Positions 2,844 to 4,596 of a DNA stretch of 19,591 nt are shown here, in pieces; the stretch's first letter is position 1; the number at the start of each line of letters is the position of its first letter. The stretch is taken from the IMG/VR virus record IMGVR_UViG_2703718871_000002. One strand, given 5' to 3'. The stretch is from a virus. Its lineage: Duplodnaviria > Heunggongvirae > Uroviricota > Caudoviricetes. Made by a program: the position numbers and the translations under genes. Under the pieces are notes generated by a model that made no database searches, was not told where the DNA came from, and was given only the letters and a program-made list of their open reading frames with translations.

Positions 2844-3287
2844 CTATTGCTCAGTGTCGTTTGATGTCGGCTGAGGATATTCGCCTTGCTCTTGTAACAG
2901 AGTTAGAAGAATGGAAAACCCCTCACGATGTGATGATTGATGAGTGTCGATCCCTGAATGATTGATGTTGTTAAACTCCAACATCGTGCTCCTGGCGATA
3001 GCCTCAACGGTATTCCAGAATACTAATACCTCTGTTTTCTGCTCTGTTTTATCAGCAACAGGAAGTTTGATATTTTGTTGAAATTTATTAATGCAACCAT
3101 TTTGAATATGTTCCTCGTGCTTTTCATTGCCATAAGCATACAGCCCGACAAAAACATCTCGCACGTTACGGGATATATTTTCCAGATTCGCCTTTGGTTC
3201 CTTTGTTAAATCAAGCACCGATAAATGGGCTTTAAGCGTATCCGCAGCTATTTTCTGAATATCCGCTGGTAAATCTTTAAATTGCAT
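2844..3287 (-). CDS. hypothetical protein (147 aa)
   Basis: Track ORF; GGAGGG Shine-Dalgarno 6 nt upstream of ATG at 3287. Confidence 0.55.
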   Translation of the reverse strand: MQFKDLPADIQKIAADTLKAHLSVLDLTKEPKANLENISRNVRDVFVGLYAYGNEKHEEHIQNGCINKFQQNIKLPVADKTEQKTEVLVFWNTVEAIARSTMLEFNNINHSGIDTHQSSHREGFSILLTLLQEQGEYPQPTSNDTEQ

Positions 3288-3363
3288 AGTATACCCTCCA
3301 AGAACTGTGTATTTTCTCGTGAAATATGAGCGATATGTCGTGACGTCCCTGTCACAGATTTCA

Positions 3364-4185
3364 TCACACTGAGAACGTGCCGATGAAGGTTAAGATATCT
3401 TCTTCTTCGAAACGCTCTTTCAGCAGGTCACGGAACTCTTTGGCAATTTCTTCTTCCGCAGCTTCAACACGCACGATACGTAGCACCAGAACAGGCTGTT
3501 CGCTTGTCAGAATGCTTAATCGCAGCGTGAATTCCCTGTTGCCCAGGCCCTCGTATGGGATGCATTCAAAGCGGAAAGTGGCAGGCATGATTTCTTTGCT
3601 TTTAGCCTCCACGGACTCCATGACTGAGCGGCTACCGCTGAAGTTTTGCTCTTCATATTCAGCACTGCGTTTTGCGTCGATGGTAAGACGACGGATAGCA
3701 GAGATAGCCTGTTTGATATCCAGCACATTACCGTCGCTGTCATAGGCTGTGAGGAAGTCGGCCCAGTCTTCCAGCCATTCAGCGAGAGATTTCTGGAGTT
3801 GTCTTTTGCCGTCCACGTCACGTAATGCGCGATATGGTGATGTGGCTTTCAGTTCCAGCAGTGCCTTGTTGTCAGCGTGTCCAGGTTGCTCTAGAGTGCC
3901 GATATTGAACACAGTGACTGCTTTCATCGTTTCCGCGTTAATGAAGCAGCGGGAGCACTCATCGGCATACCCTTTGCTGTATTCAACAAAGTCATCAATA
4001 CTGGTTGTGGTCATGACTCCACGGAAACGAAAACGTTCTGTCATGAATCGTTCCAGACTTTCGATATTTACATTGTCCGGCAATAACGCAACAGGGCATT
4101 CCGTAAGCGGCAAATTTTCACCAGAAAAAGCAGTAGTGGTGAGTTTTACAATTTCTTTAATGGCATTGCTATCTAACTGAGACAT
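3364..4185 (-). CDS. hypothetical protein (273 aa), acidic C-terminus; family not recognised with confidence (possibly YfdQ/DUF2303-like)
   Basis: Track ORF; AAAGG motif upstream; fits the co-directional operon. Confidence 0.6.
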   Translation of the reverse strand: MSQLDSNAIKEIVKLTTTAFSGENLPLTECPVALLPDNVNIESLERFMTERFRFRGVMTTTSIDDFVEYSKGYADECSRCFINAETMKAVTVFNIGTLEQPGHADNKALLELKATSPYRALRDVDGKRQLQKSLAEWLEDWADFLTAYDSDGNVLDIKQAISAIRRLTIDAKRSAEYEEQNFSGSRSVMESVEAKSKEIMPATFRFECIPYEGLGNREFTLRLSILTSEQPVLVLRIVRVEAAEEEIAKEFRDLLKERFEEEDILTFIGTFSV

Positions 4186-4248
4186 GTATATTTACCTTTA
4201 ATTTATGGATTTAGGGATAATGCGCGAGCGTTTTAAGGCGGGGATTAT

Positions 4249-4596
4249 TCAGCGTAAAACAGCGTCATGTTGACCCTGTTTATCGAAAAGCTGTCCCTGG
4301 TCTTTCTGGAACAAAGTAAGCTCACCACCTTTATTTACAAACATCGGGGTGTTAGTTGTGTCTTCTTCTGATTTACTACCACGCATTGTCGGGCGTGTGA
4401 ATTTTAGTTTATGGGAAACTGATACGCGATTTTCATCAAGTGAAGATAATTCGAATTCAACACATACCTTTCCTTTTTTGTTTGTGCTGTTTACGCCAAA
4501 GGCAACTTCACTTAATACCGCACCAAGTTTGTTAACAAATACCCCGCCGTCGAGGTCGTTAATGAAAACATTAACATCAGTTTGATGCTGGTTCAT
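4249..4596 (-). CDS. hypothetical protein (115 aa)
   Basis: Track ORF; GGAGA 7 nt upstream of ATG at 4596. Confidence 0.55.
   Translation of the reverse strand: MNQHQTDVNVFINDLDGGVFVNKLGAVLSEVAFGVNSTNKKGKVCVEFELSSLDENRVSVSHKLKFTRPTMRGSKSEEDTTNTPMFVNKGGELTLFQKDQGQLFDKQGQHDAVLR

What the first reader, a model, noticed from the sequence alone, without database searches (positions are those of the whole stretch)
2844..4596. Three-gene block of unknown function between exo and the PAPS-reductase gene
Three co-directional ORFs (115, 273 and 147 aa), each with its own strong Shine-Dalgarno motif and separated by 60-110 bp spacers, lie in a region where lambdoid phages typically carry variable cargo. 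I could not recognise catalytic motifs in any of them; the 273-aa protein has a strongly acidic C-terminal stretch. Candidate accessory or host-interaction module.
Basis: inference. Interest (0 to 1): 0.45.

Follow-up and report, generated by a model that had tools for sequence, protein, structure and literature searches.

The report
Phage YfdP–YfdQ pair plus orphan gene
The three genes are real, but they are a widespread, already catalogued phage gene pair of unknown function (YfdP and YfdQ) followed by an unrelated E. coli-only filler gene, sitting in the early-left operon of a Shiga-toxin phage.

Summary
Three minus-strand ORFs (4249..4596, 3364..4185, 2844..3287) have their own ribosome-binding sites and 63-107 nt spacers.

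They are not one three-gene unit. The 115-aa and 273-aa proteins are homologues of E. coli K-12 CPS-53 YfdP (57% identity) and YfdQ/DUF2303 (53%; Pfam 1.6e-65). YfdP lay directly upstream of YfdQ in all 125 loci that could be scored, from enterobacterial, Vibrio, Xanthomonas, Pseudomonas and Psychrobacter phages.

The 147-aa gene is an E. coli-only mosaic ORF. It occupies the slot that most relatives fill with the HD-domain protein YfdR.

The block is 99% identical to published Stx2a phages (PA2, ArgO145, the O104:H4 phage) and is annotated there.

No defence-system, catalytic or structural match was found for any of the three. A YfdQ structure (PDB 9o7m, 36 chains) is deposited, but I found no paper for it.

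Function is still open. The only experimental data link yfdQ, together with yfdR and yfdS or yfdT, to inhibition of oriC initiation. Its neighbours are repeatedly recombination and SSB genes.

My tentative reading is an early module acting on host DNA replication. This is an ordinary, already known feature of modest interest.

The parts
4249..4596 (-). yfdP-family gene (115 aa). It is the small partner of the conserved pair. The predicted fold is one long helix (8-38), a three-stranded antiparallel sheet (43-87) and a disordered tail that carries a conserved Q100-G-Q-L103-F104 motif.
4186..4248 (-). 63-nt yfdP-yfdQ spacer holding the yfdQ ribosome-binding site (AAAGG).
   Evidence: Sequence read. 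The P-Q gap is 3-65 nt in all related loci. No Rfam match and no terminator-like site on the minus strand in the spacer.
3364..4185 (-). yfdQ-family gene (273 aa, DUF2303). Acidic (pI 4.7), single domain, with conserved RFRG (53-56), PGHADN (101-106), EDW (139-141) and PYEGL (210-214) motifs.
   Evidence: Pfam PF10065 at 1.6e-65, 221.5 bits against a 26.6-bit cut-off. phrog_210 at 4.4e-112. 53% identical to K-12 YfdQ over the full length. PDB 9o7m 'YfdQ Protein' at 7e-44, or 8.2e-58 with a profile. AF2 pLDDT 75.9. No fold neighbour. pI and charge.
2844..3287 (-). 147-aa mosaic ORF (phrog_1363) at the position that yfdR occupies in most relatives. It is adjacent to the conserved pair but not part of it.
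   Evidence: Homologues occur only in E. coli, 19 clusters. The N-module (about 1-75) and C-module (about 76-147) recombine independently with other modules. It is found only in the Stx-phage lineage L002-L012, and most other loci have a YfdR-like HD protein at +1. No similarity to K-12 YfdR. No Pfam, NCBIfam, PADLOC or PDB hit.
4671..5258 (-). Context: a 195-aa SSB-like gene between exo and yfdP. It is the last gene of the Rec module (Gam-like, RecT, exo, SSB).
   Evidence: phrog_743 'single strand DNA binding protein' at 9.9e-69. No Pfam hit. Annotated as SSB in phage PA2. It ends in ...YGSDSF.
1..534 (-). Context: a YfdT-like ORF that runs off the left end of the window. It lies in the same operon, five genes downstream of yfdQ.
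   Evidence: tblastn with K-12 YfdT: 53% identity over 96 aa, 1.5e-27. The reading frame is open from 534 to base 1. No Pfam hit on the truncated product.

Best explanation
Shown: the block is the yfdP-yfdQ gene pair of a lambdoid (Oslovirus-type, Stx2a-converting) phage, followed by an unrelated mosaic ORF. All three lie in the leftward early operon, downstream of cI, a restriction-modification system, Rha, Gam, RecT, exo and SSB. YfdP and YfdQ are a fixed two-gene unit across very different phages. Inferred (about 0.3-0.35): the two proteins work together as an early-expressed complex. YfdQ would form a large homo-oligomeric scaffold and YfdP would be its small partner. The complex would act on the DNA-replication machinery of the infected cell, most likely by holding or remodelling a host initiation or replisome factor. 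Initiation at oriC would then be damped while the phage replicates with its own helicase and primase. This is the same kind of effect as the 'bin' (block of initiation) activity of the lambda exo-xis region. The gene after yfdQ is an exchangeable slot. In most relatives it holds YfdR, an HD-domain protein that binds DnaA. Here it holds the 147-aa ORF, whose role is unknown and need not be linked to the pair.
For: Identity. Pair linkage: a YfdP homologue sits immediately upstream of YfdQ in 79/79, 28/28 and 18/18 loci that have upstream DNA, spanning YfdQ identities from about 34% to 100%. Operon position. Experimental data on the K-12 homologues (PMC4776307): multicopy yfdQ + yfdR + (yfdS or yfdT) inhibits oriC initiation in vivo. 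Extracts overproducing YfdQRST inhibit initiation in vitro. yfdQ is required. [quoted passage not shown] The lambda exo-xis region blocks host initiation (Sergueev 2002, as summarised in PMC10789677). This phage carries its own DEAD-box helicase and primase, so it could afford to block host initiation. A YfdT-like gene lies in the same operon. Oligomer: PDB 9o7m holds 36 chains of one YfdQ sequence, and no YfdP or capsid chain of that phage is in the PDB. Neighbours in distant phages are DNA-metabolism genes: SSB, ERF, Rad52-like, YqaJ and DnaQ-like exonucleases. A conserved Qxx[LMI][FL] motif, like a beta-clamp-binding motif, sits in the disordered tail of YfdP in 20 of 29 non-redundant homologues. 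I treat that as a weak lead only.
Against: YfdR, the only component shown to touch DnaA, is absent from this window and from the Vibrio, Xanthomonas and Thalassomonas phages, so the K-12 phenotype may not transfer. yfdP was not needed for the K-12 suppression, and YfdQ did not bind DnaA or YfdR detectably. Deleting yfdQRST had no replication phenotype. All K-12 effects were seen in multicopy. I found no structural or sequence similarity to any replication protein. The oligomeric state is inferred from a chain count only. I could neither inspect coordinates nor find a paper.
Confidence: 0.33

Rival explanations
1. YfdP-YfdQ is an accessory of the phage's own recombination and replication apparatus. 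It would bind ssDNA, DNA ends or the phage SSB/annealing protein and help recombination-dependent replication or protect phage DNA, rather than acting on the host.
For: In at least five separate lineages the pair sits next to recombination genes of non-orthologous types. Here it follows RecT, YqaJ-type exo and SSB-like. In marine Vibrio and Thalassomonas podophages the order is ERF, YqaJ/RecE-like exo, DnaQ-like exo, YfdP, YfdQ, SSB. In Xanthomonas phages a recombinase, an exonuclease and SSB follow within 4 kb. In Burkholderia phage JC1, gp5 is RecT, gp6 is YqaJ and gp10 is DUF2303. JC1 gp10 was detected in CsCl-purified virions, and the authors suggested DNA association like T4 gp2 (PMC9144972).
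Against: Many carriers have no Rec module at all. ST64B, LLS and most of the 80 enterobacterial loci have only cI upstream and YfdR downstream. Zheng et al. 2025 considered the idea and judged it unlikely that these genes are unrecognised recombination proteins (PMC12315714). LLS carries the cluster yet its growth is enhanced by RecBCD and it is described as encoding no RecBCD inhibitor, which argues against end protection from RecBCD. YfdQ is acidic, pI 4.7 with a family median net charge of -11, which is unusual for a DNA binder. Early phage regions are rich in DNA-metabolism genes anyway, so adjacency is weak evidence.
Confidence: 0.25
2. YfdP-YfdQ is a counter-defence (anti-immune) module that neutralises a bacterial defence system early in infection.
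For: It is expressed from the early operon alongside known host-nuclease and defence inhibitors. A Gam-like gene is at 6912..7193. Tad2-like (PF11195) genes directly flank the pair in 14 marine phage loci. The pair is present in phages with no annotated integrase as well as in temperate ones, as expected for a function needed during lytic growth. YfdQ is acidic and oligomeric, as several anti-defence proteins are. Its distribution is patchy but wide.
Against: There is no similarity to any characterised anti-defence protein by sequence or fold. No experimental hint appears in any of the roughly 30 papers that mention YfdQ or DUF2303. The very strong conservation of length and motifs over 1780 clusters is unusual for fast-evolving anti-defence genes.
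Confidence: 0.18
3. The three genes form one accessory, defence or lysogenic-conversion operon that benefits the lysogen.
For: In K-12 the yfdPQ transcript is detectable in uninduced cells, and the host regulator SrsR binds its promoter region (PMC9181523). CPS-53 genes have been linked to stress tolerance. Producing YfdQ restored plaque formation by a resident phage in one preprint.
Against: No PADLOC hit for any of the three. The third gene is swapped independently of the first two. The pair occurs in phages without an annotated integrase. It lies inside the repressor-controlled early-left operon. No promoter or terminator signal above background was found within the block.
Confidence: 0.06

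Closest known systems
E. coli K-12 cryptic prophage CPS-53 (KpLE1) yfdP-yfdQ-yfdR-yfdS-yfdT cluster
   Same: It has the same two first genes in the same order, with a similar spacer (65 nt against 63 nt here). YfdP is 57% and YfdQ 53% identical over the full length. A YfdT-like gene lies further down the same operon.
   Different: There is no YfdR (the HD-domain, DnaA-binding protein) and no clear YfdS in the window. The +1 position holds an unrelated 147-aa mosaic ORF. Here the pair follows a complete Rec module, whereas in CPS-53 it follows a divergent promoter region.
sb37-sb36-sb35 of Salmonella phage ST64B and gp39-gp38-gp37 of phage LLS (the yfdP/yfdQ/yfdR cluster described by Zheng et al. 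2025, PMC12315714)
   Same: It is the same pair in the early-left operon of a lambdoid phage. That paper names phage ArgO145, whose YfdQ protein is 98.9% identical to the one here, as a carrier that also has a full Rec module.
   Different: Those phages have the HD phosphohydrolase at +1 and no Rec module. YfdQ identity is about 55%.
PDB 9o7m, 'YfdQ Protein'
   Same: It is a full-length homologue (profile E = 8.2e-58, about 40% identity) that shares the RFRG, PGHAD, EDW and PY.GL motifs.
   Different: It comes from a Xanthomonas/Xylella-phage-type sequence, 95-99% identical to phages MET23-P3, Usme and Bolivar. I could see only the chain count (36). It is absent from the fold-search libraries, and I found no paper.
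Lambda exo-xis ('bin') region
   Same: It occupies the same genomic position, between exo and xis in the pL operon, and is non-essential early cargo. The region is reported to block host replication initiation and to influence the lysis-lysogeny decision. An Ead/Ea22-like gene is shared.
   Different: I did not find that the three proteins are homologues of lambda orf60a, orf61, orf63 or orf73. The resemblance is positional and, at most, functional.
Burkholderia phage JC1 gp10 (DUF2303)
   Same: It is in the same family and sits near RecT and YqaJ genes.
   Different: It was reported as virion-associated by mass spectrometry. Nothing comparable is known for the enterobacterial members.

Membership tests
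YfdQ / DUF2303 (Pfam PF10065) | Scores above the curated Pfam gathering threshold over the whole domain | tested here: met
   221.5 bits against a 26.6-bit cut-off; residues 27-271 match profile positions 24-269 of 269.
YfdQ / DUF2303 (Pfam PF10065) | Single-domain protein of about 265-285 aa carrying the family's conserved motifs (RFRG, PGH.D, EDW, PY.GL) | tested here: met
   273 aa. R55, H103, Q131, E139, D140, P210, R222, R236 and others are invariant or nearly so across 60 representatives at 35-57% identity. The motifs are present in the window protein.
YfdQ / DUF2303 (Pfam PF10065) | Large homo-oligomer, as implied by the 36 chains in PDB 9o7m | not testable with these tools
   Only the chain count is visible. 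No multimer prediction was available.
YfdP family (Pfam PF27127) | Sequence membership | tested here: met
   The 100%-identical cluster representative P0121 carries PF27127. 57% identical to K-12 YfdP. PF27127 is not in the local Pfam copy, which returned only a sub-threshold chance hit.
YfdP-YfdQ conserved gene pair | yfdP lies immediately upstream of yfdQ, co-directional, with a short spacer | tested here: met
   The window has a 63-nt spacer. The same arrangement is seen in 125 of 125 comparable loci.
yfdQRST replication-initiation inhibitory gene set (Noguchi and Katayama 2016) | Presence of yfdR, the HD-domain DnaA-binding component | tested here: not met
   tblastn of K-12 YfdR against the window gave nothing better than E = 0.3. 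The +1 gene is unrelated.
yfdQRST replication-initiation inhibitory gene set (Noguchi and Katayama 2016) | Presence of yfdQ plus yfdS or yfdT | tested here: met
   yfdQ homologue at 3364..4185. YfdT-like ORF at 534..1, 53% identity over 96 aa.
yfdQRST replication-initiation inhibitory gene set (Noguchi and Katayama 2016) | Inhibits oriC initiation when overexpressed | not testable with these tools
   Requires flow cytometry or an in vitro oriC assay.
Known anti-phage defence systems (PADLOC-DB 2.0) | Any component model matched | tested here: not met
   No hit for A, B or C at E up to 0.01. Only the neighbouring PAPS-reductase-like protein hits SspD and DndC models.
Lambdoid Rec module (annealing protein, exonuclease, SSB, RecBCD inhibitor) | Homology or fold similarity to one of the four functional classes | tested here: not met

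The most novel reading that the evidence does not exclude
YfdP-YfdQ could be a universal, still uncharacterised two-protein phage machine. YfdQ would form a megadalton assembly, and YfdP would tether it through a conserved Qxx[LMI][FL] tail motif that resembles a beta-clamp-binding motif. The assembly would capture the host sliding clamp or an initiation factor. That would make it a new class of phage host-replication takeover factor, or alternatively a new anti-defence sponge, shared by temperate and virulent phages of many Proteobacteria.
Probability: 0.15. Interest if true: 0.6.

Novelty: already known. Interest (0 to 1): 0.28.

Why it matters
The sequence itself is not new. It is 99% identical to dozens of deposited Stx2a phage genomes, including the O104:H4 outbreak phage, and two of the three proteins belong to named families. 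What remains open is the function of YfdP-YfdQ. The pair is kept together in every lineage I examined and spans about 1800 clusters at 50% identity, yet it has no known activity and no structural relatives. If it does control host replication, or counter a defence system, it would bear on how Stx prophages switch to productive growth and hence on toxin output. The practical point for anyone annotating such regions is to treat the pair as one unit and the third gene as separate cargo.

Tried and rejected
- **9o7m.** No paper cites it, and it is not in the fold-search libraries. I asked whether it could be part of a virion reconstruction. The capsid protein of the source-type phage matches only unrelated phage capsids in the PDB, and no YfdP chain exists there. 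I therefore rejected that idea.
- **Are YfdP and YfdQ related to each other?** hhalign gave probability 0.1, so no.
- **Other family libraries.** NCBIfam and PADLOC gave nothing for the three proteins.
- **RNA elements.** An Rfam search of 2600..4800 gave nothing.
- **Transcription signals.** The promoter/terminator scan found promoter-like sites at or below shuffle expectation and no minus-strand terminator in the spacers.
- **YfdQ as a DNA mimic.** It is only moderately acidic (net -15 over 273 aa), so this is not compelling.
- **RecBCD inhibitor.** This is disfavoured, because phage LLS carries the cluster yet benefits from RecBCD.
- **Wider taxonomic sampling.** The broad alignment was too diverse for the genome scan. 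The single-protein scan gave only two Pseudomonas loci, and one viral scan found nothing.
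Full report
**What is there**

The window holds three co-directional ORFs on the minus strand:
- A: 4249..4596, 115 aa.
- B: 3364..4185, 273 aa.
- C: 2844..3287, 147 aa.

Reading the sequence shows a ribosome-binding motif before each ATG:

| ORF | Motif | Distance upstream of the ATG |
|---|---|---|
| A | GGAG | 8 nt |
| B | AAAGG | 9 nt |
| C | GGAGGG | 6 nt |

The spacers are 74 nt (upstream gene to A), 63 nt (A-B), 76 nt (B-C) and 107 nt (C to the next gene). Two points need amending. A 195-aa gene (4671..5258) lies between exo (5258..5947) and the block. The acidic C-terminal stretch of the 273-aa protein is a confidently predicted, conserved amphipathic helix rather than a tail.

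**Where the window comes from**

The 2-kb block is 99.3-99.8% identical to Stx2a-converting phages and STEC prophages. These include Lyz12581Vzw, PA2, ArgO145, Ss-VASD, the O104:H4 outbreak phages P13374 and phiON-2011, and many 'Stx2a-converting phage' records. It occurs in 127 of 5426 complete E. coli genomes.

Annotation of close relatives and Pfam scans of the window give the gene order of the leftward early operon:
- cI (11703..12416)
- a BsuBI/PstI-type restriction-modification pair
- a Rha-type regulator
- small genes including a Kil-like gene, then a Gam-like gene
- RecT and a YqaJ-type exonuclease
- the 195-aa SSB-like protein
- A, B and C
- a PAPS-reductase-like protein
- two small ORFs and an Ead/Ea22-like protein
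- an ORF that runs off the left end of the window

The rightward arm carries the phage's own DEAD-box helicase and primase.

**What the three proteins are**

B is a YfdQ/DUF2303 protein. Pfam scores it at 1.6e-65 over the whole domain and phrog_210 at 4.4e-112. It is 53% identical to K-12 YfdQ over the full length.

A is a YfdP-family protein. It is 57% identical to K-12 YfdP. The identical database representative carries Pfam PF27127 and the name YfdP.

C has no Pfam, NCBIfam, PADLOC or PDB match and is unrelated to K-12 YfdR. Its homologues are confined to E. coli. An alignment shows two modules, roughly residues 1-75 and 76-147. Each also occurs joined to other, unrelated modules. It is a mosaic orphan gene of the kind common in this part of lambdoid genomes.

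**It is a pair plus a passenger, not a three-gene module**

I fetched loci encoding YfdQ relatives and scored the gene just upstream.

| Locus set | YfdP homologue directly upstream of YfdQ |
|---|---|
| 80 IMG/VR loci closest to the window | 79 of 79 with upstream DNA |
| 8 named distant phages (VvAW1, Bolivar, 34E29.1, PG1, BA3, Psymv2, D93, ST64B) and 20 marine viral contigs | 28 of 28 |
| 18 further loci from distant seeds, including two Pseudomonas genomes | 18 of 18 |

That is 125 of 125, with a gap of 3-65 nt, down to about 34% YfdQ identity.

The gene after YfdQ is not conserved. It is a YfdR-like HD-domain protein in 59 of the 80 enterobacterial loci. It is the 147-aa ORF only in the Stx-phage lineage. 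In distant phages it is SSB or an assortment of hypothetical genes. So C occupies an exchangeable slot.

**How large and how opaque the family is**

A profile search of 1.84 billion representatives found 1780 clusters at 50% identity. The 150 best-scoring members are nearly all about 265-290 aa and match as a single domain. Across 60 members at 35-57% identity the conserved positions are mostly polar: E45, R55, T60, Y69, H103, Q131, E139, D140, R165, E190, C208, R222 and R236. They form no motif I can assign.

AlphaFold2 gave two usable models:
- YfdQ: mean pLDDT 76. A conserved segment, residues 171-196, is left unmodelled.
- YfdP: mean pLDDT 86. It has one long helix, a three-stranded sheet and a disordered tail.

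By sequence, the PDB holds one entry, 9o7m 'YfdQ Protein', with 36 chains of a single sequence. That sequence is 95-99% identical to YfdQ of the Xanthomonas/Xylella phages MET23-P3, Usme and Bolivar. The PDB contains no YfdP chain and no capsid of that phage. The entry is therefore most simply an isolated high-order YfdQ assembly. I found no paper for it.

**What the literature says**

- Noguchi and Katayama (PMC4776307) showed that multicopy yfdQ + yfdR + (yfdS or yfdT) suppresses over-initiation in hda-185 cells. It also inhibits oriC initiation in wild-type cells and in vitro. YfdR binds DnaA domain I. yfdQ is required, but its role is unknown and it does not detectably bind DnaA or YfdR. 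yfdP is dispensable, and deleting the genes has no phenotype.
- Zheng et al. [quoted passage not shown] They state that yfdQ and yfdP 'have no known function', and that the cluster occurs both in phages without a Rec module (LLS, ST64B) and in ArgO145, which has a full one. They judge it unlikely that these are hidden recombination proteins.
- The JC1 paper found its DUF2303 protein in CsCl-purified virions.
- SrsR binds the yfdO/yfdP spacer, and yfdPQ is treated as an operon.
- A preprint reports that YfdQ production restores plaque formation by a resident phage.
- The lambda exo-xis region, the positional equivalent, blocks host replication initiation.

**Context in distant phages**

Within four or five genes of the pair in 45 distant loci I found:
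- DnaQ/RNase T-like exonucleases: 20 loci.
- YqaJ-type exonucleases: 18 loci.
- ERF annealing proteins: 16 loci.
- SSB: 16 loci.
- Tad2-like anti-Thoeris-type genes: 14 loci.
- A Rad52-like protein: 5 loci.

These loci represent only a handful of independent lineages. Even so, the association with recombination and SSB genes of non-orthologous types recurs here, in the marine podophages, in Xanthomonas phages and in JC1. The pair also occurs in phages with no annotated integrase, so its role is likely in lytic growth rather than in the lysogen.

**Mechanism**

Identity and architecture are secure. Function is not.

My preferred reading, at about one in three, is that YfdP and YfdQ act together early in infection on the cell's replication machinery. 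YfdQ would be an oligomeric scaffold, and the downstream slot would supply lineage-specific effectors such as YfdR. Three things support this: the K-12 genetics, the 'bin' precedent at the same genomic position, and the fact that this phage has its own helicase and primase.

The main weakness is that the DnaA-binding partner YfdR is absent here and in many other carriers.

The rivals are:
- An accessory role in phage recombination or replication, at about one in four.
- Counter-defence, at just under one in five, helped by the Tad2-like neighbours.
- A lysogen-benefiting or defence role, which I consider unlikely given no PADLOC hit, presence in phages without integrase and a location inside the repressed operon.

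One weak lead is the disordered tail of YfdP. It carries Q100-G-Q-L-F104, a Qxx[LMI][FL] pattern like a beta-clamp-binding motif. The pattern is kept in 20 of 29 non-redundant homologues, with a hydrophobic pair at the equivalent place in most of the rest. It could equally be the contact with YfdQ.

**Verdict**

This is a correct observation of an ordinary, already catalogued feature. The useful refinements are four:
- Two of the three genes are an invariant pair.
- The third gene is unrelated cargo.
- No defence or catalytic signature exists in any of them.
- A structure of the larger protein has been deposited.

The unanswered question of what this very widespread pair does keeps it from being wholly uninteresting.

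Noticed in passing
It matches phrog_743 'single strand DNA binding protein' at 9.9e-69, has no Pfam hit and ends in ...YGSDSF. It was absent from the 28 distant yfdPQ loci that I searched for it.
   Followed up: partly
window 1..534 (-): An ORF is open from 534 to the left edge of the window. Its first 96 residues are 53% identical to K-12 YfdT (1.5e-27), and its last visible residues (GWISCSDRMP) look like the start of a DUF551 domain. So this phage has yfdQ and a yfdT-like gene in one operon but no yfdR.
   Followed up: partly
window 1858..2736 (-): The PAPS-reductase-like protein downstream of the block matches PADLOC models for DNA phosphorothioation proteins (SspD 9.1e-15; DndC and BrxP weakly), as well as phrog_424. 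A phage-borne relative of a DNA-sulfur-modification enzyme might be worth its own look.
   Followed up: no
window 9189..11608 (-): A BsuBI/PstI-type restriction endonuclease (317 aa) and an Eco57I-like methylase (489 aa) sit in the early-left operon just downstream of cI. In the closely related wrbA prophage of strain STEC2018-553 this place instead holds HicAB and a Clp-fold protease.
   Followed up: partly
window 4282..4299 (YfdP residues 100-104): A conserved Q-G-Q-L-F in the disordered tail of YfdP fits a Qxx[LMI][FL] beta-clamp-binding-like pattern. It is present in 20 of 29 non-redundant homologues. By chance about 0.1 such matches are expected per protein, so only its conservation is notable.
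   Followed up: partly
L084 5688..6197 and 13 other marine viral loci: Tad2-like (PF11195, Thoeris anti-defence 2-like) genes lie one to three genes from the yfdP-yfdQ pair in marine Vibrio-type podophages.
   Followed up: partly
proteins P0170 and P0002: Database entries appear to fuse YfdP and DUF2303 domains (166 aa) or DUF2303 and Ead/Ea22 domains (398 aa). They are probably deletions or annotation artefacts, but a true YfdP-YfdQ fusion would support physical interaction.
   Followed up: no
window 1700..7300: Terminator-like hairpins are more frequent than in shuffles (16 against 6.8 +/- 2.7). Most are on the plus strand, antisense to the genes. None lies in the spacers of the block on the coding strand.
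   Followed up: no
YfdQ residues 171-196 (window about 3598..3675): This segment is conserved across the family (consensus RS.ME.IEAKS) yet is modelled with pLDDT below 50. That suggests it becomes ordered only in the oligomer or on a partner.
   Followed up: no
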